Part shown: one piece after another, positions 10,328-35,715 of the stretch
How the letters are laid out: each line of letters opens with the position of its first letter
Numbering within the stretch: the first letter of the stretch is position 1
From: an uncultured Caldisericales bacterium
GTDB lineage: Bacteria; Caldisericota; Caldisericia; JAAYUI01
Direction: 5' to 3'
DNA: 64,000 bases
Assembly (NCBI GenBank): GCA_964613055.1
Contig: CAZTGD010000001.1
Coordinates: 6,977-70,976 of the forward strand
Notes under the pieces: generated by a model
Database searches by the model: none
What the model was told of the DNA's origin: nothing
What the model saw: only the letters and a program-made list of their open reading frames with translations
Program-made: the position numbers and the translations under genes

Positions 10328-10351
10328 GGGGGGCCGTCTAAAAAGCCCCCC
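10328..10351 (-). terminator. GC hairpin terminator (GGGGGGC-N10-GCCCCCC) downstream of the 10421..13558 gene
   Basis: 7-bp G/C stem. On the minus strand it is followed by UGUUUGUAUUUAUU. Lies 70-90 nt after the stop of the large surface-protein gene. Confidence 0.45.
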
Positions 10352-10420: not shown

Positions 10421-13400
10421 CTACTTCTCTGATGGATACACCACCTCAATAGCGCTCTCCTCTGCTATCCAGTTTACATCAGCACCCAGTGACTCACAGG
10501 CAAACCTGAGTGGGAGCATGGTGCGACCATTCACAATTGTTGGATAGAGGACAGTCTGACCATCGGCACCAATGATTGTCGTCTCTACACCATTTATCTT
10601 GGCAGTGGACACATTGTCCACCCAAAGCTGAAGGAACGTATTGCCCAGTGTGACGTCAACCCTTCTGTCAGCATCAATCCAATCAACCGTTGCGCCCAAC
10701 GCCTCAAACACAGCCCTGACTGGCATGTATGAGTTGCCAGCAAGCTCTGCAGGAAGAGGTGGTGACTTGGTTGTAGGCATGGGATCAAGATCATCCGCCT
10801 GTTTGTTATTGATGACAAACTTGGGCTCATTGACCCAGAGTTTGAGCCTTATGGTTTCAACAGTTTCAAACTTGATGTAGCTGTCGATGGTTGATTCATT
10901 CCCAAGCGTGTCAACTGCCTTGACAGTTACAGCGTTGAGGCCAGAGTTGAGTTCAATTTCAAAGCTGAAGTTGCCTTCCAGATCAACTGAAGCTTCTTGA
11001 CCATTTATGAAGACCTTTGCCATAGGTTCAGTCGTTCCTTCAAGCGTAACTGGTGATTGAGAGACGAGTTCTGGAATATCACACTCAATGGCTGGAGGCT
11101 GTGAATCAACGATGAGAGTAAATGGAGTAGGATCAGAAGTTTTTTCACTCATTGTCGAAGCAATGACAGTAACATTGTATTGACCGTCTCCTTCTACGGT
11201 AATCTCTAACTCAAAGGAACCCTCTTCGTCTGACTGGCAGTACCCAACTGGAACATTGTCTATGAGTGCAACAACGCTGTGATTGGGGGATGTTTTCCCT
11301 TTGAGTGTGTATGTGGTTGTTTGCGAACCGGCGAATCCGGGTTCAGGAAGATCGAGTTCAAGGGGGATCTTAGTGGCATCAATGATTACAGTCCTGTTGA
11401 GTTTAAAAACATTACCTGCCTTATCCTTGGAAACCATATTGATTGTGTATTCACCGTCTTCGAGATCCTTGAGTATCACGCTGAACTCACCATTGGCAGA
11501 TACTTCAATGGGTTCATCGTTCACCATCAGTCTCGCTCCACGTTCGGTAGCGCCCTGGAACTCAAATGGAAGGCTGACAATCTTTTGACCCTCCTTAATG
11601 GTTGTTCGGATTATAGGTCTTCTTGTGTCAAGGATTACAACCTTGATAACATCGGCGGCATTTCCATCAGCGTCTTCAGCGTGGAACTTCAGCTCATTGC
11701 GACCCTCGTCAATGGGTATCATATCGCTGAATGTGCCATCTGTTTTAACAGTAACGGGTCTACCGTTAACGCTGAGTGTTGCACCTGGAACGGTTGTACC
11801 CTCTACCTTGAAGCTGTCCTCATTTGTGATTGTGGTATCGTCAAGGTCTATGTCTAGTTTTATTGGGGGTTTTGCAACAACGTTCATTTCAATTGGTATC
11901 GAGAGATTGCCAACACTCGACTCGACATCAATTGATCCACTGTGCATTCCGGGTTCCATACCTTCAGCAGACAGTGTGACCTCGTATGTCTGTGAGAGGG
12001 TGACATACTCTGTTGAAGACAGTGATATCCAATCATCGCTTGGGGTTAGTGTTCCGTTTATCTCACCAGTGTCATTATAATAAACTCGAACGTTTCTCGT
12101 TTTGACTTCATCCGGGTAGATCTGGTTTATCCTGATTGTGGATGGATCTGAGTACAGTCCTACAACCTTTTCGCCATAGCATATGATCCTGTCACCACTG
12201 ACAAACACCTTATCGTTTGCGATCACGGGCATTGGCATAATCATCGACCCACCACCAAACGGCATTCCACCGGACATCATTGTATCATCAGTGAAAACTA
12301 TTTCACCATCTGTGATGTTGGCTATTGAGAATTTGGTTCCTCTTGTGCTGATAACCTTGTCCTTAGTACAGGCAAATTGCATACAAGTGAATGCCATGCC
12401 ACCGGGTGTTTCGTTCTTCCACACAAGAGAGCCTTTGTTCTTGCTGACGCATATTGTATGACTCATGGCGAGTTGGAGAACGATACCTCTTGGTGTGATG
12501 GCAGGTATACCATATAGGCAGAAATCAACAGTTCTTTCATTAGCGTAGTCAATGCTGGAGATATCAAACACCCAGATATCTTCTCCATTCTCAGCGTTGC
12601 ATGCCATGAGTTCGCTGGTGGGCATGACCATCCTTCTACCACCGATTTCACTCGGTACTTTCATTTTAGAGAAGTAGATTCTACCATCTGCATAGGAGAT
12701 TCCTCCTGCAATTTCGCTTTCATCAAGCTTCTTTTCCCATGCTATCTTTCCCTCCTCATCAAATGCAATAACGGCAGAATCATTAATCTCAGGCATTGGA
12801 TTATCAGGATTCATCTTGATCTTTGCTACAGATGTAAATATCTTCCCATCCCCGTATGTCAGCATCATCAGTGGCATCCTGTCTAGATCAGCACTCCAAA
12901 CCTCTGACTGGTTATTTGGATCCATACATACAAACCTGGTGTTACCAATTGTCCGATCCTCACCTATCTCAGTGTATGCAAGATAGATATACTCTTCGCC
13001 AACCAGCCCTCCTGATATTGTGGTGGGTTTTTTTATCACTTCTTTGAAGATCTCGGCTCCATTTTCAGGTGAAATCATACCAATAACAGAACTCACTTCT
13101 GTCTCTTCAGTGGTACTCATCGGGTGACCACCTCCTCCAGGACGACCGCCTCCATGACCTCCACCTCCTGATCCATCTTCTCCACCTCCAGCTTGCATGT
13201 AAGATGTACAGATGAATACGATCTTCCCATCAACATATCCAATTTGAGCTGAACCTATTTCTCCAACCTTATAGCTCCATAGCTCTCGACCATCAGATTG
13301 TTCTAAGCATACAATCACGCCCTGTGATGTGCCAAAAATTATCTTGTCATCGATTGCTATGTGTGATGCAATTGTTCCGTTCTCAGGATAGTATACCCAT

Positions 13401-14938: not shown

Positions 14939-15025
14939 GCCGAAGTGGCGGAATTGGTAGACGCGCATGGTTCAGGTCCATGTCCAGGCAACTGGGTGGG
15001 GGTTCAAGTCCCTTCTTCGGCACCA
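14939..15025 (+). tRNA. tRNA-Leu (anticodon CAG), long variable arm, encoded CCA
   Basis: Manual fold. Acceptor GCCGAAG/CTTCGGC. Anticodon stem CATGG/CCATG with loop TTCAGGT. Variable stem CCAG/CTGG. 3' terminal ACCA. Confidence 0.85.
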
Positions 15026-19006: not shown

Positions 19007-19684
19007 TTATCGATTGTCAGTTTTTACTTGTTCTAGTTTATTCTCTATCCAATCAAACCAGGCATGAAGACCATCTCCCGATTTGATGGAGAAAGAGATG
19101 ATGTCCAGTTTTGAGTTCACTTTTAGGGCATCCTGCTTGAAGTCATCAATGTTGAAGTCACAGTATGGAATAAGGTCCAGCTTGTTGATTAGAACGCAGT
19201 CTGAAACCCTGAATGCTAGAGGATACTTTGCTGGTTTGTCGTCACCCTCGGGAACTGAGAAAAGGAGAATCTTTGAGTGTTCACCTAGTTCATATGCCGC
19301 AGGGCAAACGAGGTTTCCAACGTTTTCAATGAATATAATATCAAGATTATCGAGGGGAAGCCCCTCGATTGCCTCTTTAACCTGCGATGCTGTAAGGTGA
19401 CAGGAAGAACCAGTACCGGCTGTGTTAATGAGGGATACTGGGACATGCATCTTTTCGAGTCTTCTTGCATCCCTGTTGGTTTCGGGATCGCCCTCTACCA
19501 CTGCGAGAAGGTAGTCATTTTTAAACCTGGAGAGTGTTTTCTCAAGTAGAGATGTTTTCCCAGAGCCTGGAGAGCTGATCATATTCAGGGCAAGTATCCC
19601 TTTTGAATCAAATGTTTTCCTCAAATAATCTGCTATCTTCTCTGTCTTAAAATCAACTTTCTTCTTTATATCAATCTCCATCAT
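19007..19684 (-). CDS. hypB: Hydrogenase/urease nickel-incorporation GTPase HypB
   Basis: ISSPGSGKTSLLEKT (P-loop) and ENVGNLVCPAAYELGE are HypB signatures. Start refined to ATG 19684 (GGAGG RBS). The table ORF extends into hypA. Confidence 0.85.
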   Translation of the reverse strand: MMEIDIKKKVDFKTEKIADYLRKTFDSKGILALNMISSPGSGKTSLLEKTLSRFKNDYLLAVVEGDPETNRDARRLEKMHVPVSLINTAGTGSSCHLTASQVKEAIEGLPLDNLDIIFIENVGNLVCPAAYELGEHSKILLFSVPEGDDKPAKYPLAFRVSDCVLINKLDLIPYCDFNIDDFKQDALKVNSKLDIISFSIKSGDGLHAWFDWIENKLEQVKTDNR

Positions 19685-21668: not shown

Positions 21669-22256
21669 TCATTCTCTGTATATACTAATTAATAGCTTTC
21701 CAATTCTAGTTAGTGGTTGTCCGTATTTTCCACTTGCTATTATTCCTGAACCAAGCAATCTAGACATCATTGGGTCATTCAAATAATAATTCATATCATC
21801 ATTATTAATTATGAATTGGGCATTTGTCATTTTGTCTATTTTGACAATATCTTCATAAAAACATCTGTCTATTGCATACCCTACTTCAAAAAACTGATGT
21901 TCAGTAATCCTACCCATAATCAGATATTTAAAAGCTTTGCCAAGTAAGACTGCTTTTTCAACACAATCTAATCTATCAATTAATATCATCATTTTCTCAC
22001 AAATTTCTACTGATTTCCCACTATCCAACTTTTTAATATACAATTCTCGATCTTTTTGGGGAATTGTATCTGGATTACCCATGAATCCAATCCATTTCTT
22101 AAAAAATGCTCGTCTTAAACATTTTTCTACAAGTTCATAACCACTTGAAGCAATTGAACCAAGATAAGGGATCGCTGTCAATACTGTTTTTATACATTCT
22201 TTGACTATACAACTATCAGTTATTGGATTGTTCAGTCTATTATCAGATTCCTTCAT
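21669..22256 (-). CDS. Hypothetical 195-aa protein in the AT-rich island, co-oriented and 15 nt downstream of the Type IIG R-M gene
   Basis: Very AT-rich ORF with no recognisable motif. Lies immediately 3' of the R-M gene on the same strand, so co-transcription is likely. Confidence 0.5.
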   Translation of the reverse strand: MKESDNRLNNPITDSCIVKECIKTVLTAIPYLGSIASSGYELVEKCLRRAFFKKWIGFMGNPDTIPQKDRELYIKKLDSGKSVEICEKMMILIDRLDCVEKAVLLGKAFKYLIMGRITEHQFFEVGYAIDRCFYEDIVKIDKMTNAQFIINNDDMNYYLNDPMMSRLLGSGIIASGKYGQPLTRIGKLLISIYRE

Positions 22257-22271
22257 CTAAGCTCCTTATCC

Positions 22272-25200
22272 TTATTTATAAGGCAGTTTTGAAAGTTCAT
22301 TGACAAGCTTCACCGTTTCTAGTGAGACGGTTACCACCTTGCCAATGAGGTCAAATATATACCTTTCATTGCCGTCAAAGTTGTTTGGGTCTTGTTTTAT
22401 TCCTGACCTTTTATCTGTTTTGACCCTGTATTGGTCAACAATCCATTCTAAAGCAGAGCGGTTACCCAGCTTGTATTCATAGACTTCTGGTGGGATGCCT
22501 GCAAGTGTTATTGCTTTGTTGTAGACAAGTGATTTCTTATCCTTTGTAATTTTCATCTTGTCTACGGTGAACTTTACATCTGGGAATCTATCTTTATCAA
22601 TAACCTCTTCAAGCTCATATATGTCGGCGTTTTCATAGTCCAGGTGAATATCAGCGAGTCTTTTGCCAATCGAACTGAAGCTCCAGAAGTCTGGTGCAAA
22701 GGGTATTCTTGGTAATGATCCTTTCAGGTTCTTCTCATAGTCCTTGCGGTAATCCTTGTGGTGTAGCATTGCATAGATGTAGTAGAAGATGTCCCATTTG
22801 GTTATTTGCTCCGCTTCACAGGGAGGGTGGACAGGAGTATCATTTAAACCCCCCTGATTTGACTTCGTCAAATCTTCCCCCCTCGAAGAGGGGGGCTTAT
22901 TGTGTGCTTCGTCGGTTCCACTCGAAGAGGGGGGCTTAGTGTCTTTGTAGTGGTTGTGGAACAGTTTCAGGGTGTGGTCGGTAATGTTTTCACGTCTTCC
23001 TGTGCCGTCCTTGTTGTAGGTGTAGAAGGGGAAGCATTGTGAATCACCTGTAAAATGTAAATCAGGTATGGTCTTCGATATTAATGACTGGAATGGTTTC
23101 TTGTTTCCAACCGCTGTTGTGCATATCACCCTGTTCTCTTCCTCGGATGCGGATGTTGGAAAGAAACGATGTTGTTGGTATCTTCTTTGATTCAATAGAT
23201 GATCAAAATATAGATTCACTCGACAATAAGGTCTATAAATACTTTTTCTAAAACCGTTCTCTGATAACCTAATTTGAATATTTTTCTTGAGAGATTCTTT
23301 TAGTCTAACCGTCCACTTTATCTTGCTCTCATCATTTGATAAAATCTTTTCTAATTCAATATCACCAATTTGTCTGTGTGGTTGCTTCTCTAATTTTATT
23401 CTTTCAGTTTCATATGTTGAATAATGCAACATAAGATTTGTTTTTAATTCTTGTTGTGAGAAATTGTATACCCATATATCTCTACCTGTTGCAACTCCTC
23501 TTGAGTAAAGATTGAAGATGGTATCGCAGTCCGGTTTGCCCTTCTTGCGCTTGTCACCCATCAGGGGGTAATCCTCAAAGTCCTCCGCCATACCCTCAGT
23601 CAACCACAGGTGACGCTTGCTGGGTGTCAGTTTCTTCCAGTTGACTCCTTTTAAATCACCCGCCTTGTATACAATTTCAAACTTTTCAATCCTTGTAGAT
23701 CTGAAAGGTACGTCAAAGTACCAGATTCCCTTTTCTTTTGATGCTTTGTTCTTTATGAAGAATGAAATGGATATACCAACCATTGCTGACAGACCAAACA
23801 CTGTATGCTTTTCACCCAATGGTATACCATCTCTCATTGAGTCTTTCCGTATGTTACCCTTTAGATCCAACACATACAGCTTATCAAAATCCTTCTCCAG
23901 GTGCTTTCTCATCCCGTCAAAAGCGTATCCATCGATGAAGCTGTTGTTGGTGATCATGGCAATAACACCCTCATCACCGATTCTCTCTGATGCCCACTTG
24001 ATGGCTTTTACATATGGATCATAAATTGCATTCTTTTTTGTCGCTCTTGAGTCTTTCCCAAAGGTATTTCCGATAGCCTCCTCTAATTTGGGATATTTCC
24101 TGTTTTTATTATTATCCATCTCATTCTGCTGATTTGAGTTGTATGGAGGGTTACAAATGACAACAAAGATTGGTGATTCTGACTGTTTTATGACTCTCTG
24201 TGCGTTCTCATCATTGAAGTACAGACCACCGTGTTCTTCAAACATCTGAAAGGTGTCGGCAAAGCAGATGCCTGGGAAGGGCTCTCTTTCACCCATAGCA
24301 TCGTAGTATGCGTGCTCTATGTTGATGTTTGCTATGTAGTATGGCATCAGCTGTATCTCATTACAGTGAAGCTCCTCAAGGTATTTTTGTTTTAGTCTGG
24401 TAGGGTTAATCTTCTCTATCACGTTTACTATGAAGTTTCCTGTTCCCACAAAAGGATCAATAATGTGGACTTGTTCACTACCTAGACCCTGCTTCTTGTC
24501 AAACTCTGTCTTGAGTATCTCGTCTACTGACCTGACCATGAAGTTAACCACAGGTTGTGGTGTGTAGACTATTCCAAGTCTGTCTGCTGATTTTATTGCC
24601 CAGCCTTGAAAGAAACGCTCAAAGATATCGTTTAGGAAGACCTGTTTTGCTTTGAAATCCTCCAGCTTATATGCCGCTTTCACTATCTGATCGTAGAAAT
24701 GGTCAAGAGAGCCTAAGAACTCTGTTTTGTTGAAGTAACCTTTGGTCATTGAATCGATTACGCTTTCAATGTTCTTTGCTATTATGTTTCGACTTGTAAA
24801 GCTCTTAAGGTCAAATATGCTCTCCAGTATCCTCTCCGTAAGCAGGTGCTGTACAATCATCTCTTTGATTGCGACACGGCTCACATTGGGATTGATTGAT
24901 TTTGTGCAAAGTTTATAGAACTCATCAAATCTTTTTATGAAAAGCTCGTTTGTTTGTTGTGATTCCTCAATCTTTTCAAGCAGACCCTTGGCGAGTATTG
25001 GCATACGTTCATCAAAGGTGTCAATAGCCTCTTCCCATGTTTTCCTGTCAAAATGTTCATAGTTGAAGAACTTTTCAAGTACCTTGATGAAACTCTCTGG
25101 GTTGTCTGCTATATCTTCATCATAGACCTTTTTCTTTCGCTGTATTAGAACAGCACGCTTTGGTTGCCAGAAGAGTATATTGAAATCTGGATAGTCTTTT

Positions 25201-25559
25201 GTGAGAATCTTTTTTTCTATCTCTTCATCCAGGTCATCATCGTCATCCTTTGATTCCATATACCCCATGGGGAGAATGCCTACTTTTGATTCTAGAAAAC
25301 TGCCATCAGGGATGTTGCCGTTTGGTAGAGATTTCTTCGGTTCAAAGTTCCATTCAACTTGCTTTGAACAGTATGAAAGTAGGTTTAGGAAGATTGGCTC
25401 TACTACACCTTCAGATGGATTGTTGTTTGTACGAGTCTGAAAATATATCTCATACTGCCTCTTCATATCCCTGTAGTACTGCTCAATGGGTTTGTCAGAA
25501 GGTTTTAGGCTGAGTTTGCTCTGTTCATTCATACAACCACTCCCATTTATAGTTTTCAA
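22272..25559 (-). CDS. Type IIG (MmeI-like) restriction-modification enzyme: N-terminal PD-ExK-like nuclease + gamma-class N6-adenine DNA methyltransferase + target-recognition/C-terminal domain (alternative: BREX PglX-like MTase)
   Basis: Candidate nuclease motif IPDGSF...VGILPMGYMESK (PD...ExK), resembling the D..ExK catalytic motif recalled from MmeI (not verifiable here). MTase motif I IIDPFVGTGNFIVNV. Motif IV VVICNPPYNS. C-terminal FYYIYAMLHHKDYRKDYEKNLKGSLPRIPF matches the MmeI/PglX-type C-domain. No BREX partner genes nearby. Confidence 0.65.
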   Translation of the reverse strand: MKTINGSGCMNEQSKLSLKPSDKPIEQYYRDMKRQYEIYFQTRTNNNPSEGVVEPIFLNLLSYCSKQVEWNFEPKKSLPNGNIPDGSFLESKVGILPMGYMESKDDDDDLDEEIEKKILTKDYPDFNILFWQPKRAVLIQRKKKVYDEDIADNPESFIKVLEKFFNYEHFDRKTWEEAIDTFDERMPILAKGLLEKIEESQQTNELFIKRFDEFYKLCTKSINPNVSRVAIKEMIVQHLLTERILESIFDLKSFTSRNIIAKNIESVIDSMTKGYFNKTEFLGSLDHFYDQIVKAAYKLEDFKAKQVFLNDIFERFFQGWAIKSADRLGIVYTPQPVVNFMVRSVDEILKTEFDKKQGLGSEQVHIIDPFVGTGNFIVNVIEKINPTRLKQKYLEELHCNEIQLMPYYIANINIEHAYYDAMGEREPFPGICFADTFQMFEEHGGLYFNDENAQRVIKQSESPIFVVICNPPYNSNQQNEMDNNKNRKYPKLEEAIGNTFGKDSRATKKNAIYDPYVKAIKWASERIGDEGVIAMITNNSFIDGYAFDGMRKHLEKDFDKLYVLDLKGNIRKDSMRDGIPLGEKHTVFGLSAMVGISISFFIKNKASKEKGIWYFDVPFRSTRIEKFEIVYKAGDLKGVNWKKLTPSKRHLWLTEGMAEDFEDYPLMGDKRKKGKPDCDTIFNLYSRGVATGRDIWVYNFSQQELKTNLMLHYSTYETERIKLEKQPHRQIGDIELEKILSNDESKIKWTVRLKESLKKNIQIRLSENGFRKSIYRPYCRVNLYFDHLLNQRRYQQHRFFPTSASEEENRVICTTAVGNKKPFQSLISKTIPDLHFTGDSQCFPFYTYNKDGTGRRENITDHTLKLFHNHYKDTKPPSSSGTDEAHNKPPSSRGEDLTKSNQGGLNDTPVHPPCEAEQITKWDIFYYIYAMLHHKDYRKDYEKNLKGSLPRIPFAPDFWSFSSIGKRLADIHLDYENADIYELEEVIDKDRFPDVKFTVDKMKITKDKKSLVYNKAITLAGIPPEVYEYKLGNRSALEWIVDQYRVKTDKRSGIKQDPNNFDGNERYIFDLIGKVVTVSLETVKLVNELSKLPYK
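22842..22934. repeat. GC-rich structured in-frame insertion inside the R-M gene: 17-bp direct repeat (CTCGAAGAGGGGGGCTT x2), four C6/G6 homopolymer tracts, nested hairpins
   Basis: CCCCCC-TGATTTGAC-TTC-GTCAAATC-TTCCCCCC-TCGAAGA-GGGGGG ... TCGAAGA-GGGGGG. Much higher GC than the surrounding roughly 30% GC gene. Encodes the Pro/Ser/Gly linker KPPSSSGTDEAHNKPPSSRGEDLTKSNQGG. Confidence 0.5.
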
Positions 25560-25732: not shown

Positions 25733-26257
25733 CTATCTGTGATTGATGATATTAGAGATGTCATAGGTGTTTGCTATTCCCGTTCTTCCTTTTCTGCTGT
25801 GTATACCCTTTGTGATTATTAGATTGTATTCACTTTCAAGTGACTTAATTGCTTTGTTGGGTCCTGCTTTTGAATAGGTTCCTCTGGTACTGGGTTGAAG
25901 GTTCATGAATTCACAGATCTGTTCAAGACTTAGGAAACAGCTTGTATTGTTGAATTGATGGCAGACTGAAAGGATGATACGAAGGATCTTGTGTTTGTAC
26001 TTATCACCTTTGATATTAAAGTATGAGGTGTTTATCTTTGGTCTGTGACATATTGATTGGATGCTGTTGTAAACATTGGTTAGGTATTGGTATCTGTAGT
26101 TAGAAAGCTCTGAAAAGTGACCAGGCTGATACTTGTCAAATACGTCTTTTATATCATCCAGTGAGTAACCACAGGTATCAAGACGGGTCATAACCGCGGC
26201 TTCTGCCTCTGATCTTGATGGATATGATTTGAAGGTGCTTAGAGTCTTTATATCCAA
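25733..26257 (-). CDS. Winged-HTH protein, possibly a truncated or non-canonically initiated replication-initiator/regulator-like gene of the island
   Basis: C-terminal wHTH-like segment LSLEQICEFMNLQPSTRGTYSKAGPNKAIKSLESEYNLI. The table ORF starts with TTG. The same frame stays open upstream to a TAG at about 26629-26631 (roughly 125 more codons, including a CSGCG motif) with no ATG, GTG or TTG in between. Confidence 0.4.
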   Translation of the reverse strand: MDIKTLSTFKSYPSRSEAEAAVMTRLDTCGYSLDDIKDVFDKYQPGHFSELSNYRYQYLTNVYNSIQSICHRPKINTSYFNIKGDKYKHKILRIILSVCHQFNNTSCFLSLEQICEFMNLQPSTRGTYSKAGPNKAIKSLESEYNLIITKGIHSRKGRTGIANTYDISNIINHR

Positions 26258-34068: not shown

Positions 34069-34145
<77 letters not shown>

Positions 34146-34152
34146 TTGGTGT

Positions 34153-34226
34153 GTGCCCGTAGCTCAGTTGGATAGAGCATCTGCCTTCTAAGCAGAGGGT
34201 CGGGCGTTCGAGTCGCCCCGGGCACG
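34153..34226 (+). tRNA. tRNA-Arg (anticodon TCT)
   Basis: Acceptor GTGCCCG/CGGGCAC. Anticodon stem TCTGC/GCAGA with loop CTTCTAA. T-loop TTCGAGT. No encoded CCA. Confidence 0.8.
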
Positions 34227-34245
34227 TATATCATTGGCATGGTAT

Positions 34246-34320
34246 GGGCCCATAGCTCAGATGGATAGAGCGGCGGTCTCCTAAACCGCAGGTCGCAGGT
34301 TCGACTCCTGCTGGGCTCAC
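34246..34320 (+). tRNA. tRNA-Arg (anticodon CCT)
   Basis: Acceptor GGGCCCA/TGGGCTC. Anticodon stem GCGGT/ACCGC with loop CTCCTAA. T-loop TTCGACT. Confidence 0.8.
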
Positions 34321-34335
34321 CATCGAAAAGAGGGA

Positions 34336-34410
34336 GCGCCTATAGCTCAACTGGATAGAGCGACGGACTTCGGATCCGTAGGTTGCGGGTTCGACTCCTG
34401 CTGGGCGCGC
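34336..34410 (+). tRNA. tRNA-Arg (anticodon TCG)
   Basis: Acceptor GCGCCTA/TGGGCGC. Anticodon stem ACGGA/TCCGT with loop CTTCGGA. T-loop TTCGACT. Confidence 0.75.
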
Positions 34411-34428
34411 CATTTGTATAGTTGATGT

Positions 34429-34504
34429 GGGTTGCTAGCTCAATTGGTAGAGCATCTGACTCTTAATCAGGCGGTTGGGGGTTCGAGTCCCTTGCAACCC
34501 ACCA
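34429..34504 (+). tRNA. tRNA-Lys (anticodon CTT), encoded CCA
   Basis: Acceptor GGGTTGC/GCAACCC. Anticodon stem TCTGA/TCAGG with loop CTCTTAA. 3' terminal ACCA. Confidence 0.8.
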
Positions 34505-35536: not shown

Positions 35537-35622
35537 GCGAGGGTGGCGGAATTGGTAGACGCGTTGGATTTAGGATCCAGTGAGCTTAGCTCGTGCGGGT
35601 TCAAGTCCCGCCCTTCGTACCA
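35537..35622 (+). tRNA. tRNA-Leu (anticodon TAG), long variable arm, encoded CCA
   Basis: Acceptor GCGAGGG/CCTTCGT (two G-U pairs). Anticodon stem TTGGA/TCCAG with loop TTTAGGA. Variable stem GAGC/GCTC. 3' terminal ACCA. Confidence 0.8.
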
Positions 35623-35640
35623 ACACTATAACTTGTTGAT

Positions 35641-35715
35641 GCGGGAGTAGCTCAGTGGTAGAGCACGACCTTGCCATGGTCGGGGTCGCGGGTTCGAATC
35701 CCGTCTCCCGCTCCA
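35641..35715 (+). tRNA. tRNA-Gly (anticodon GCC), encoded CCA
   Basis: GCGGGAGTAGCTCAGTGGTAGAGCACGACCTTGCCATGGTCG... Anticodon loop TTGCCAT. 3' terminal TCCA. Confidence 0.85.

What the first reader, a model, noticed from the sequence alone, without database searches (positions are those of the whole stretch)
22842..22934. GC-rich, hairpin-forming, in-frame insertion with 17-bp direct repeats and four C6/G6 tracts inside the Type IIG gene
Inside an AT-rich gene there is a roughly 95-bp segment: CCCCCC-TGATTTGAC-TTC-GTCAAATC-TTCCCCCC-TCGAAGA-GGGGGG-CTT...TCGAAGA-GGGGGG-CTT.
- It contains an 8-bp perfect hairpin, a C6/G6 hairpin, a duplicated 17-mer (CTCGAAGAGGGGGGCTT) and four homopolymer runs of six.
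- It keeps the reading frame and encodes a duplicated KPPSS(S/R)G linker, just before the conserved C-terminal domain.

Two readings fit: a miniature hairpin element (MITE-like) that inserted and was tolerated, or a slipped-strand phase-variation module. Homopolymeric G/C tracts in R-M mod/res genes are the classic phase-variation switch. Six-mers are at the lower limit for efficient slippage.
Basis: seen in the sequence. Interest (0 to 1): 0.7.

Follow-up and report, generated by a model that had tools for sequence, protein, structure and literature searches.

The report
Mobile double-hairpin repeat inside restriction gene
The GC-rich hairpin patch is a real, in-frame 43-codon insertion in a DrdV-like restriction-modification gene: a stranded copy of a small double-hairpin repeat that occurs in many bacterial phyla, often inside ordinary genes, and that elsewhere flanks a small DUF559 nuclease gene, rather than an on/off switch for the enzyme.

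Summary
Four C6/G6 runs, two perfect 8-bp hairpins and a 17-25 nt direct repeat lie in 22842-22937, on the antisense strand of a 1086-aa DrdV-like Type IIL R-M gene. The patch belongs to a precise 43-aa insertion (22806-22934) between DrdV residues 842 and 843, which most orthologues lack and which is predicted to be a disordered loop. Its core is a 52-nt module (22847-22898): hairpin 1 (C6-TCTTCGA-G6), hairpin 2, then G6-TT. The same 52 nt occur, 52/52 identical with unrelated flanks, in a Caldisericia genome, in a different R-M gene, next to an in-frame DUF559 (Vsr-like) nuclease cassette. The 19-nt hairpin 1 occurs in about 100 public contigs from many phyla. It is often followed by a different hairpin 2 and a G6 tail, and often sits in frame in housekeeping genes (SerRS, Era, MnmG). 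Free-standing DUF559 genes are flanked by direct repeats of related modules. The closest described entity is Rfam whalefall-1 (19 bits; threshold 37). The mobile-element reading is supported. The phase-variation reading is not supported, but it cannot be excluded without reads. The window holds no second copy. How the module moves is inferred, not shown.

The parts
22272..25532 (-). Host gene: a single-chain DrdV-like Type IIL (IIG) restriction-modification enzyme of 1086 aa from the ATG. The mechanical ORF from TTG extends to 25559.
   Evidence: ORF list and translation. Pfam ISP_coupler + N6_Mtase + Type_ISP_C. PDB 7lo5_A (DrdV) at E 7e-175, aligned over chain residues 54-1024. Identical protein P0001 on a JGI contig and an NCBI contig.
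22806..22934 (-). In-frame 43-codon insertion (P0001 residues 867-909, PPSSSGTDEAHNKPPSSRGEDLTKSNQGGLNDTPVHPPCEAEQ) in the target-recognition domain, between HYKDTK and ITKWDIF.
   Evidence: The phmmer alignment to DrdV breaks exactly at query 866|910 = DrdV 842|843. Orthologue P0009 reads HYKDTKITKWDIF without interruption. 67 relatives have the canonical spacing. AlphaFold pLDDT is below 50 for residues 866-907, with no secondary structure, between helices 852-861 and 912-924.
22847..22898 (-). Intact 52-nt double-hairpin module: AAG-CCCCCC-TCTTCGA-GGGGGG-AA-GATTTGAC-GAA-GTCAAATC-A-GGGGGG-TT.
   Evidence: 52/52 nt identical to L079:6329-6380 (Caldisericia MAG OY771555.1), with random-level flanks of 11/40 and 13/40. 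Sub-threshold Rfam whalefall-1 hit at 22850-22893 (-), 19 bits, E 0.01.
22877..22895 (-). Hairpin 1 of the module (CCCCCCTC / TTC loop / GAGGGGGG on the coding strand). This is the constant 19-mer of the family.
   Evidence: Perfect 8-bp stem. The exact 19-mer was found in 68 metagenome stretches, 34 genome stretches and 1 viral stretch.
22856..22874 (-). Hairpin 2 of the module (GATTTGAC / GAA / GTCAAATC). This is the variable hairpin of the family.
   Evidence: Perfect 8-bp stem. In 23 other copies this position holds 23 different sequences, with a mean perfect stem of 5.4 bp against 2.7 +/- 0.16 in shuffles. Relatives at the same protein site keep a hairpin here with a different sequence.
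22842..22854 (-). G6 tail of the module plus TTTAAAT (coding strand GGGGGGTTTAAAT; C6 on the + strand).
   Evidence: A G5+ run follows hairpin 1 within 40 nt in 49 of 92 unique copies, against 22 in the mirror control; the tails are AGT (16) or TTT (7). GGGGGGTTTAAAT is shared with L109 (P0007) at the same site.
22899..22937 (-). Decayed tandem copy of the module (AAGCCCCCCTCTTCGAG-TGGAA-CCGACGAAGCACACAAT). It is the source of the 17/25-nt direct repeat and of the fourth homopolymer run.
   Evidence: Direct-repeat family D2. A global alignment to the intact module shows shared AAGCCCCCCTCTTCGA and GACGAAG with in-frame deletions.
22819..22830 (-). CCACCCTCCCTG: probable remnant of a second module type in the opposite orientation (CCCTCCC - hairpin - CCCTCCC/GGGAGGG), which is complete at the same site in relatives.
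   Evidence: Comparison with L002, L109 and L079, which carry ..CCCTCCC-[hairpin]-CCCTCCC-TAxAA-GGGAGGG. Coordinates. This is an inference from similarity of a short motif.

Best explanation
The feature is a stranded ('solo') copy of a small, dispersed, GC-rich double-hairpin DNA module. It is accompanied by a decayed tandem copy and by a scrap of an oppositely oriented module.

The module has three parts in a fixed polarity:
- a constant hairpin (C6-loop-G6);
- a second hairpin whose sequence differs from copy to copy;
- a G6 tail.

It sits in frame in a permissive loop of the target-recognition domain of a DrdV-like Type IIL restriction-modification enzyme. There it is simply translated as a 43-residue Pro/Ser/Gly-rich disordered loop.

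In other genomes the same or related modules flank a small DUF559 (Vsr-like PD-(D/E)xK) endonuclease gene as direct repeats. This holds both when the DUF559 gene is free-standing and when it is inserted in frame into R-M genes, including at this very site in related enzymes.

What is shown:
- it is an insertion;
- the identical module exists elsewhere, in an unrelated context, next to DUF559;
- the family is widespread and often intragenic in both orientations.

What is inferred:
- The module is, or was, mobilised at the DNA level, probably with the DUF559 nuclease acting on the hairpins.
- Solo copies arise either as non-autonomous copies or by recombination between the two flanking repeats that deletes the nuclease gene.
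- Only stop-free, in-frame copies in tolerant loops survive selection.
- The C6/G6 runs are stems, not slippage tracts.
For: Insertion.
- The DrdV alignment breaks at 842|843.
- Orthologues read HYKDTKITKWDIF uninterrupted, and 67 have the canonical spacing.
- The segment is predicted to be a disordered loop.

Same element elsewhere.
- The module is 52/52 nt identical to L079:6329-6380, inside a different 1240-aa R-M gene of a Caldisericia MAG.
- There it forms the right flank of an in-frame DUF559 cassette, and the flanks are unrelated.

Hot spot.
- The closest relatives P0002-P0008, P0026, P0061, P0073 and P0091 carry hairpin-coded inserts at the same site.
- P0003, P0005, P0006 and P0091 carry DUF559 there.
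- The distant homologue L033 has DUF559 at a second site and a short module at this site.

Family.
- The exact 19-mer occurs in 68 metagenome stretches and 34 genome stretches, with contig GC from 0.30 to 0.73, across many phyla.
- The architecture is polar: 49/92 copies have a downstream G-run against 22/92 in the mirror control, and 19 against 1 have an intervening hairpin.
- The middle hairpins are 23 distinct sequences with stems far above shuffles.

In-frame occupancy of real genes.
- SerRS, Era, MnmG, GH2 and GT1 are confirmed by Pfam.
- Both orientations and all frames are seen.

Nuclease unit.
- Free-standing DUF559 genes are flanked by direct repeats of the module: 62 nt at 95% in L110, and 106 nt at 87% in L111.
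- The mid hairpin in L110 (TGACGAAGTC) matches the core of the window's hairpin 2.

Rfam.
- The only hit is whalefall-1, which has the same architecture.
Against: - There is no second copy in the 64-kb window. The source genome is absent from the genome and metagenome collections scanned, so copy number in this genome is unknown.
- No empty/occupied allele pair was found, so the exact ends and any target-site duplication are undefined.
- DUF559 is not a known transposase or homing endonuclease, and no mobility has been demonstrated.
- Nothing on this association was found in 25 papers that mention DUF559.
- Some exact-19-mer hits in high-GC genomes are probably unrelated or chance. About 4 are expected at uniform composition in 596 Gb (my estimate).
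- Only about 45 of 120 free-standing DUF559 proteins show a module-like peptide at their C-terminus.
- The insertion at this site could be ancient in the clade and largely vertically inherited, with only the module refreshed by conversion.
Confidence: 0.75

Rival explanations
1. Phase-variation switch. Slipped-strand mispairing in one of the four C6/G6 tracts shifts the frame and turns the R-M enzyme off and on.
For: - Homopolymer tracts in R-M genes are a classic contingency mechanism (established knowledge).
- A -1 or +1 change in the C6 tract gives stops at codon 897 or 907 and removes the last ~190 residues of the TRD.
- Relatives show in-frame copy-number differences of hairpin-coded units at another site of the gene: P0005 has 43 aa and P0006 has 23 aa.
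Against: - The tracts are 6 nt long. Well-studied switches use about 8 or more (established knowledge).
- They are base-paired partners in a conserved hairpin module.
- The same module sits in essential genes (SerRS, Era, MnmG), where on/off switching is implausible.
- The JGI and NCBI contigs encode the identical protein.
- Every relative examined is in frame, although the tract lengths vary from 4 to 7.
Confidence: 0.06
2. An ordinary lineage-specific low-complexity linker that grew by local duplication. The hairpins are a by-product of Pro (CCN) and Gly (GGN) codons, and no mobile element is involved.
For: - The insert contains a 39-nt tandem duplication.
- Relatives in the same clade also have P/G-rich inserts at this site, so part of it may be inherited.
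- The loop is predicted to be disordered.
Against: - The 52/52 nt identity to a copy in a different gene of a different genome has unrelated flanks. The orthologous proteins of those genomes are only ~59% identical.
- The same polar three-part DNA architecture recurs in unrelated genes, in intergenic DNA and in both orientations.
- The middle segment is always a hairpin at the DNA level, whatever it encodes.
Confidence: 0.05
3. A functional structured RNA: a whalefall-1-like small RNA, or an mRNA element embedded in the coding region.
For: - Rfam whalefall-1 is the only family hit (19 bits, E 0.01), with matching two-hairpin + purine-tail architecture.
- Weinberg et al. rated whalefall-1 as certainly RNA, on covariation (PMC2864571).
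- Hairpin 2 stays paired while its sequence changes.
Against: - The score is well below the gathering threshold of 37, and none of 18 related loci reaches it.
- Copies lie inside ORFs in both orientations relative to the host gene. That fits a DNA repeat better than a strand-specific RNA.
- Copies flank a nuclease gene as direct repeats.
- Palindromic DNA repeats also produce apparent covariation.
Confidence: 0.08

Closest known systems
Rfam RF01762 whalefall-1 RNA motif (Weinberg et al. 2010, PMC2864571)
   Same: - It has two adjacent hairpins followed by a purine/G-rich tail.
- Hairpin 1 is C-rich/G-rich.
- Hairpin 2 starts GAUUU and ends AAAUC, as in the window.
- It is known only from metagenomes.
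- It is the only Rfam family hit here.
   Different: - The window copy scores 19 bits against a gathering score of 37.
- Its stems are C6/G6 rather than UCUCCCC/GGGGAGA.
- It lies inside a coding region.
- It is linked to DUF559 cassettes.
- whalefall-1 was described as a non-coding sRNA with 16 members from one habitat, and no link to mobile DNA was proposed.
Rickettsia palindromic elements (RPEs; Ogata et al. 2000, as cited in PMC3733652)
   Same: - They are short palindromic repeats inserted in frame into genes that probably still encode functional proteins, including housekeeping genes.
- They are absent from orthologues.
- They are tolerated as surface additions.
   Different: - RPEs are described in Rickettsia (PMC3733652) and are longer, about 100-150 bp (my recollection).
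- No associated nuclease cassette is known for them.
- The present family is GC-rich and about 40-60 nt per module, and the same 19-mer is found across many phyla.
- No sequence comparison with RPEs was done.
REP / BIME elements and REPtrons (REPs flanking a RAYT transposase gene; PMC3733652, PMC3116915)
   Same: - The units are 20-40 nt palindromes, often in arrays of alternating orientation. L003 carries head-to-head modules.
- An enzyme gene is flanked by the repeats it presumably acts on.
- Some REPs lie inside genes.
   Different: - There is no GTAG or CGTC tag.
- The flanked gene is a DUF559 PD-(D/E)xK nuclease, not an IS200/IS605-type HUH tyrosine transposase.
- The flanks are direct repeats.
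- There is strong cross-phylum sharing of an identical hairpin.
Bacterial MITEs (e.g. Correia/NEMIS, RUP, Nezha; review PMC10969869)
   Same: - They are small, non-coding, hairpin-forming and dispersed.
- They can insert in frame and be co-translated.
- They are presumed to be mobilised in trans.
   Different: - No 15-30 bp terminal inverted repeats, no recognisable target-site duplication and no parent IS with a transposase were found.
- The module is shorter than typical MITEs (70-300 bp).
Homopolymer-tract phase variation of R-M genes (Haemophilus, Neisseria, Helicobacter, Campylobacter; established knowledge)
   Same: G/C homopolymers lie inside an R-M open reading frame, and a slip would truncate the protein.
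   Different: - The tracts are only 6 nt long and are paired as hairpin stems.
- They are part of a repeat that also occupies essential genes.
- No length polymorphism was seen between two assemblies.

Membership tests
Rfam RF01762 whalefall-1 | Covariance-model score at or above the curated gathering score (37 bits) | tested here: not met
   19 bits, E 0.01-0.027 at window 22850-22893 (-). None of 18 related loci reaches the threshold.
Rfam RF01762 whalefall-1 | [quoted passage not shown] | tested here: met
   The cmscan alignment pairs both stems and the AGGGGG tail. Description from Additional file 1 of PMC2864571.
Rfam RF01762 whalefall-1 | Non-coding (sRNA) location | tested here: not met
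   The copy lies inside the R-M ORF and is translated in frame.
MITE | Terminal inverted repeats of about 15-30 bp | tested here: inconclusive
   Only an 11-nt, 91% complementary pair (TAAACCCCCCT / AGGGGGGCTTA), which is made of the C6/G6 blocks themselves.
MITE | Target-site duplication at the ends | tested here: inconclusive
   No empty allele at the nucleotide level is available. AAG precedes both module copies, but that is too short to interpret.
MITE | Several copies in the same genome | tested here: inconclusive
   There is no other copy in the 64-kb window. The source genome is not in the scanned collections. Multi-copy status is shown in other genomes: 5 copies on one 86.6-kb contig, and 2 copies plus variants in Caldisericia OY771555.1.
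MITE | Derived from, and mobilised by, an IS element with a transposase | tested here: not met
   The only gene found flanked by the module is DUF559/MTES_1575, a PD-(D/E)xK nuclease fold and not a known transposase.
REP/BIME with RAYT (REPtron) | GTAG (or CGTC) tetranucleotide tag at one end of the palindrome | tested here: not met
   The module ends are AAG-C6 and G6-TT(T) or G6-AGT. Defining feature taken from PMC3733652.
REP/BIME with RAYT (REPtron) | Associated IS200/IS605-type tyrosine (HUH) transposase gene flanked by the repeats | not tested
   No RAYT search was run. The flanked genes seen are DUF559.
In-frame intragenic palindromic repeat (RPE-like behaviour) | Insertion inside an ORF that preserves the frame and is absent from orthologues | tested here: met
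   for the window gene. for SerRS, Era, MnmG, GH2 and GT1.
In-frame intragenic palindromic repeat (RPE-like behaviour) | Located in a tolerant, surface or disordered part of the protein | tested here: met
   pLDDT is below 50 with no secondary structure for residues 866-907, between two helices. The site lies after all DNA-contacting TRD residues of DrdV: N673-K807, against 842/843. This rests on prediction only.
In-frame intragenic palindromic repeat (RPE-like behaviour) | Sequence membership in a Rickettsia RPE family | not tested
   No RPE sequences were compared.
Phase-variable homopolymer (contingency) locus | Tract long enough for frequent slippage (about 8 nt or more) | tested here: not met
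   All four tracts are exactly 6 nt.
Phase-variable homopolymer (contingency) locus | Tract-length polymorphism among reads or strains | not testable with these tools
   No reads were available. The two assemblies that carry the gene encode the same protein.
Phase-variable homopolymer (contingency) locus | A slip inactivates the gene product | tested here: met
   A -1 or +1 change gives stops at codon 897 or 907 of 1095.
DrdV-like Type IIL R-M enzyme (host gene) | Single chain with N-terminal nuclease, helical connector, N6-adenine methyltransferase (NPPY) and C-terminal TRD | tested here: met
   7lo5_A at E 7e-175, covering chain residues 54-1024. Pfam ISP_coupler, N6_Mtase and Type_ISP_C. 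The CNPPYN motif is in the translation. Domain layout from bioRxiv 10.1101/2021.01.06.425610. Enzymatic activity is not testable here.
Intein or intron-type intervening sequence | Hint/intein splicing domain, or a self-splicing RNA | tested here: not met
   There is no intein/Hint Pfam match in the protein, and no intron family in the Rfam scans.

The most novel reading that the evidence does not exclude
The module and the DUF559 gene together may form a mobile element that, as far as I could find, has not been described.
- It would be a small Vsr-like nuclease cassette bounded by direct repeats of a polar double-hairpin module.
- The cassette would spread into resident solo modules, or leave them behind.
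- The solo modules themselves would colonise protein-coding genes in frame, across many bacterial phyla.
- Rfam's orphan 'whalefall-1 sRNA' would be one lineage of this DNA repeat rather than an RNA gene.
- The copy-specific middle hairpin would have a role in targeting or in the reaction mechanism.
Probability: 0.35. Interest if true: 0.8.

Novelty: new variant of a known kind. Interest (0 to 1): 0.6.

Why it matters
For this window the result is modest. It explains an odd GC-rich patch as a tolerated repeat insertion in a disordered TRD loop of a DrdV-like enzyme, and it argues against annotating the gene as phase-variable.

The wider lead is more interesting.
- An identical 19-nt hairpin, with a polar three-part architecture, is shared by genomes from many phyla with contig GC from 0.30 to 0.73.
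- It sits in frame inside essential genes.
- It brackets a very common but functionally uncharacterised nuclease family, DUF559 ('endonuclease domain-containing protein').

If the link is causal, three things would follow.
- DUF559 would gain a biological role.
- An orphan Rfam family would get an explanation.
- A cross-phylum counterpart would be added to Rickettsia RPEs and REP/RAYT systems.

It also matters for annotation. These modules create spurious P/G-rich 'linkers', break assemblies (cluster of P0005: gene halves P0242 and P0243 on one contig, both annotated partial) and can be mistaken for contingency tracts.

Tried and rejected
- Other copies of the 17-mer or of any C-run/G-run hairpin in the window: none. 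The only others are a terminator-like G6..C6 hairpin at 10328-10351 and an ordinary coding hairpin in a HypB-like gene at 19349-19369.
- Recovering the source genome through the metagenome and genome scans: it is in neither collection, so a within-genome census was impossible.
- Viral contigs: only one hit, so there is no sign of phage carriage.
- Rfam at gathering threshold on the window and on 18 related loci: only tRNAs in the window, and nothing in the loci.
- Literature on DUF559, whalefall-1, Vsr-like mobile elements and in-frame GC-rich palindromes: nothing describing this association. Only general REP, RPE and MITE papers turned up.
- A covariance model built from copies that do not share the window's 19-mer: abandoned. 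MAFFT could not put the variable-length hairpins and the C/G runs into one register, so any structure string would have been forced.
- The split gene halves P0242 and P0243 as possible frameshift (phase-off) alleles: rejected. Both are annotated partial, and the break coincides with the tandem repeats at site A, so an assembly gap is more likely.
- The flanking small ORFs (195 aa and 174 aa): no Pfam match, so they add nothing.
- An intein or intron explanation: no supporting domain or RNA family.
Full report
**Observation.**
The flagged segment is real.
- On the + strand there are C6 runs at 22849-22854 and 22877-22882, and G6 runs at 22890-22895 and 22929-22934.
- There are two perfect 8-bp hairpins with 3-nt loops: GATTTGAC/GTCAAATC at 22856-22874 and CCCCCCTC/GAGGGGGG at 22877-22895.
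- The 17-mer CTCGAAGAGGGGGGCTT occurs at 22882-22898 and 22921-22937. It extends to a 25-nt repeat of 92% identity with 39-nt spacing.

It is more than chance would give.
- The whole 64-kb window has only nine C/G runs of six or more, and four lie within 86 nt (Poisson P about 9e-10).
- The region folds 4.4 SD better than shuffles.
- Its GC is 0.54-0.56 against 0.40 for the gene.

**Host gene.**
The coding strand is the minus strand. The ORF is 22272-25559, and the ATG at 25532 gives a 1086-aa protein (P0001), found identically on a JGI contig and an NCBI contig.
- Pfam finds ISP_coupler, N6_Mtase and Type_ISP_C.
- The best solved relative is DrdV (7lo5_A, E 7e-175), a single-chain Type IIL enzyme with nuclease, connector, methyltransferase and TRD.

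So 'Type IIG' is right in the broad sense. The patch lies inside the TRD, not before it.

**It is an insertion.**
- The DrdV alignment breaks exactly at query 866|910 = DrdV 842|843.
- Orthologue P0009 reads HYKDTKITKWDIF. The window protein reads HYKDTK-[43 aa]-ITKWDIF.
- Of the top relatives that could be scored, 67 have the canonical spacing.
- The insert corresponds to 22806-22934.
- AlphaFold2, run with the family alignment, gives pLDDT below 50 and no secondary structure for residues 866-907, between helices 852-861 and 912-924.
- The site lies after all DNA-contacting TRD residues reported for DrdV.

**Anatomy of the insert** (coding strand).
- A 52-nt module at 22847-22898: AAG-C6-TCTTCGA-G6-AA-GATTTGAC-GAA-GTCAAATC-A-G6-TT.
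- A decayed tandem copy at 22899-22937. It shares AAGCCCCCCTCTTCGA and GACGAAG and has in-frame deletions. This copy creates the 17-mer repeat and the duplicated KPPSS(S/R)G.
- Downstream, CCACCCTCCCTG at 22819-22830. This resembles the start of an oppositely oriented module that is complete at the same site in relatives.

**Relatives.**
The closest relatives (50-63% identity; the named ones are Caldisericia MAGs) also carry inserts at this site.
- The inserts have different lengths and are made of the same kind of DNA: a C5-6/G5-6 hairpin, then an A/T-richer hairpin whose sequence differs but which stays paired, then G6.
- P0003, P0005, P0006 and P0091 carry a whole DUF559 (PF04480) domain there.
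- A second hot spot, after P0001 residue ~598, is occupied in P0003-P0006.
- More distant relatives (P0061, P0073) have short PPxxxGG inserts at the window's site.
- A remote homologue (L033/L047) has DUF559 at the second site, flanked by two modules, and a short module at the window's site.

**The module is not confined to this gene.**
- The exact 19-mer of hairpin 1 occurs in 68 metagenome stretches, 34 stretches of GTDB representative genomes and 1 viral contig.
- Contig GC ranges from 0.30 to 0.73.
- The named hosts include Caldisericia, Clostridiales/Oscillospiraceae, Negativicutes, Synergistaceae, Thermoguttaceae, Omnitrophota, Patescibacteria, Peribacteria, Bacteroidetes and Caulobacterales.
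- Some high-GC hits are probably chance or another repeat. About four hits are expected at uniform composition (my estimate).

The architecture is polar.
- In 49 of 92 unique copies a G5+ run follows within 40 nt, against 22 in the mirror control.
- In 19 of those copies a hairpin of at least 5 bp lies in between, against 1 in the mirror control.
- The tail is mostly AGT or TTT.
- The 23 middle segments of 12-22 nt are all different. Their mean perfect stem is 5.4 bp, against 2.7 +/- 0.16 for shuffles.

**Decisive link.**
In the Caldisericia MAG OY771555.1 (the genome of P0003), a different 1240-aa R-M gene carries an in-frame DUF559 cassette just before its NPPY motif.
- The right flank of that cassette (L079:6329-6380) is 52/52 nt identical to the window module.
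- The adjacent 40 nt on each side match at chance level: 11/40 and 13/40.
- The orthologous R-M proteins of the two genomes are only about 59% identical.

This identity therefore cannot be ordinary vertical descent. It marks a discrete unit that moves or is copied.

**In-frame occupancy of ordinary genes.**
- Many 19-mer hits lie in long stop-free frames, also in low-GC contigs, in both orientations and in all frames.
- Pfam confirms seryl-tRNA synthetase, an Era-type GTPase, MnmG/GidA (its GIDA domain split by ~125 aa of modules), a GH2 glycosidase and a GT1 glycosyltransferase.
- The window module has a stop in three of its six frames. Survival in genes is therefore presumably a selection filter rather than a built-in property.

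**The nuclease unit.**
- The closest relatives of the in-frame DUF559 cassette are free-standing proteins of ~125 aa, 'endonuclease domain-containing proteins'. Those that carry a source name are mainly cyanobacterial.
- Longer ORF calls show the hairpin peptides on both sides of the domain.
- At the DNA level, L110 has 62-nt direct repeats (95% identical, 441 nt apart) of C6-AA-C6-TTAATAA-G6-TGACGAAGTC-G6. Its mid hairpin matches the core of the window's hairpin 2.
- L111 has 106-nt direct repeats at 87% identity.
- About 45 of the 120 best hits end in a module-like P-rich peptide.

**What it is and how it probably works.**
Shown: the window feature is a solo copy, plus debris, of a dispersed double-hairpin module, inserted in frame in a loop of the TRD that is predicted to be disordered.

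Inferred:
- The module family is mobilised at the DNA level.
- The DUF559 nuclease that it brackets is the likely agent.
- Solo copies are either non-autonomous copies or what remains after recombination between the two flanking repeats.
- The window copy today is most likely inert and simply translated.

I commit to this at about 0.75 for the identity of the element, and at about 0.35-0.4 for the DUF559-driven mechanism.

**Rivals.**
- Phase variation. A slip would truncate the enzyme. Against it: the tracts are 6 nt long, they are paired stems of a module that also sits in essential genes, and no polymorphism is seen between the two assemblies. It is unlikely, but it needs reads to exclude.
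- A plain low-complexity linker. This is contradicted by the 52-nt identity in an unrelated context.
- A functional RNA. The Rfam whalefall-1 hit keeps this open: 19 bits against 37, same architecture, even GAUUU...AAAUC in hairpin 2. However, both orientations within ORFs and direct-repeat flanks around a nuclease gene fit a DNA repeat better.

**Comparison with known systems.**
- In behaviour it resembles Rickettsia RPEs and intragenic REPs, which are in-frame, tolerated palindromes (PMC3733652).
- In organisation it resembles REPtrons, where an enzyme gene is flanked by its repeats. Here the enzyme is a PD-(D/E)xK nuclease, not a RAYT, there is no GTAG/CGTC tag, and the flanks are direct repeats.
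- It fails the formal MITE criteria that could be tested.
- It fails the Rfam threshold for whalefall-1, although it is probably related to it.
- I found no paper linking DUF559 to such repeats, but the library searched is limited.

**Verdict.**
The mobile-hairpin reading is supported and the phase-switch reading is not. The window copy itself is an ordinary relic. The family it belongs to looks like a new variant of the intragenic palindromic-repeat theme and deserves follow-up.

Noticed in passing
L079:4076-7795 (Caldisericia MAG OY771555.1): A 1240-aa single-chain R-M gene (NPPY methyltransferase motif) has a whole DUF559 domain inserted in frame just before the NPPY motif IV. The domain is bracketed by double-hairpin modules, and the reading frame is intact.
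   Followed up: partly
Relatives P0003-P0006, after P0001 residue ~598 (L002:~11821-11909; L004:~11792-11884): There is a second insertion hot spot in the methyltransferase/TRD junction of the same enzyme family. P0005 and P0006 differ there by tandem 10-aa units (ENVNPLHKGG; 43 vs 23 aa). The window gene is empty at this site.
   Followed up: partly
L033:1675-1713 and 2567-2605: The two modules flanking DUF559 carry the same middle stem with the loop inverted (CCCTGC-TGT-GCAGGG vs CCCTGC-ACA-GCAGGG), while the outer parts stay in direct orientation. This looks as if the palindrome had flipped.
   Followed up: no
L026 (contig Ga0187893_10000680, GC 0.66): An MnmG/GidA gene carries about 125 aa of repeated modules plus HPHDET..SRET.ETSK.YA units inside its GIDA domain. 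The same 86.6-kb contig has five copies of the 19-mer, one of them directly upstream of a DUF559 reading frame (L013).
   Followed up: partly
L048 / L106 (Patescibacteria UBA926): A seryl-tRNA synthetase has a ~20-aa module-coded insert (AAKMNPPVSPLEEGGGKGGEQ) at the start of the class II core domain.
   Followed up: partly
L003:12649-12755: Two modules lie head to head in opposite orientation at the same protein site, resembling the alternating arrangement of REPs in BIMEs. An intergenic copy (CCCCCCTTGAAAAGGGGGG) lies at L003:19836.
   Followed up: no
window 10328-10351: A GGGGGGCCGTCTAAAAAGCCCCCC hairpin lies in the gap between convergent-looking ORFs. It is terminator-like and unrelated to the module: opposite polarity and no tail.
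   Followed up: partly
window 19349-19369: A perfect 9-bp hairpin, ATCGAGGGG-AAG-CCCCTCGAT, lies inside a HypB/CobW-like GTPase gene. It encodes the ordinary-looking EAIEGLPLD, with no sign of an insertion.
   Followed up: partly
window 34069-34504 and 35537-35715; 14939-15025: There is a cluster of five tRNA genes (Pro, Arg x3, Lys), a Leu-Gly pair and a lone tRNA-Leu. The region is chromosomal and housekeeping (L21, OTCase, enolase, HypA/B nearby).
   Followed up: no
window 21669-22256 (-) and 25733-26257 (-): The two small ORFs flanking the R-M gene (195 aa and 174 aa) have no Pfam match. In relative L002 the upstream neighbours are an HTH protein and a Peptidase_M78 (ImmA/IrrE-like) protein.
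   Followed up: partly
Cluster of P0005 (P0242 + P0243 on one 69-kb contig): In one Caldisericia assembly the orthologous gene is reported as two partial halves, with the break at the tandem hairpin repeats of site A. This is probably an assembly gap caused by the repeats.
   Followed up: partly
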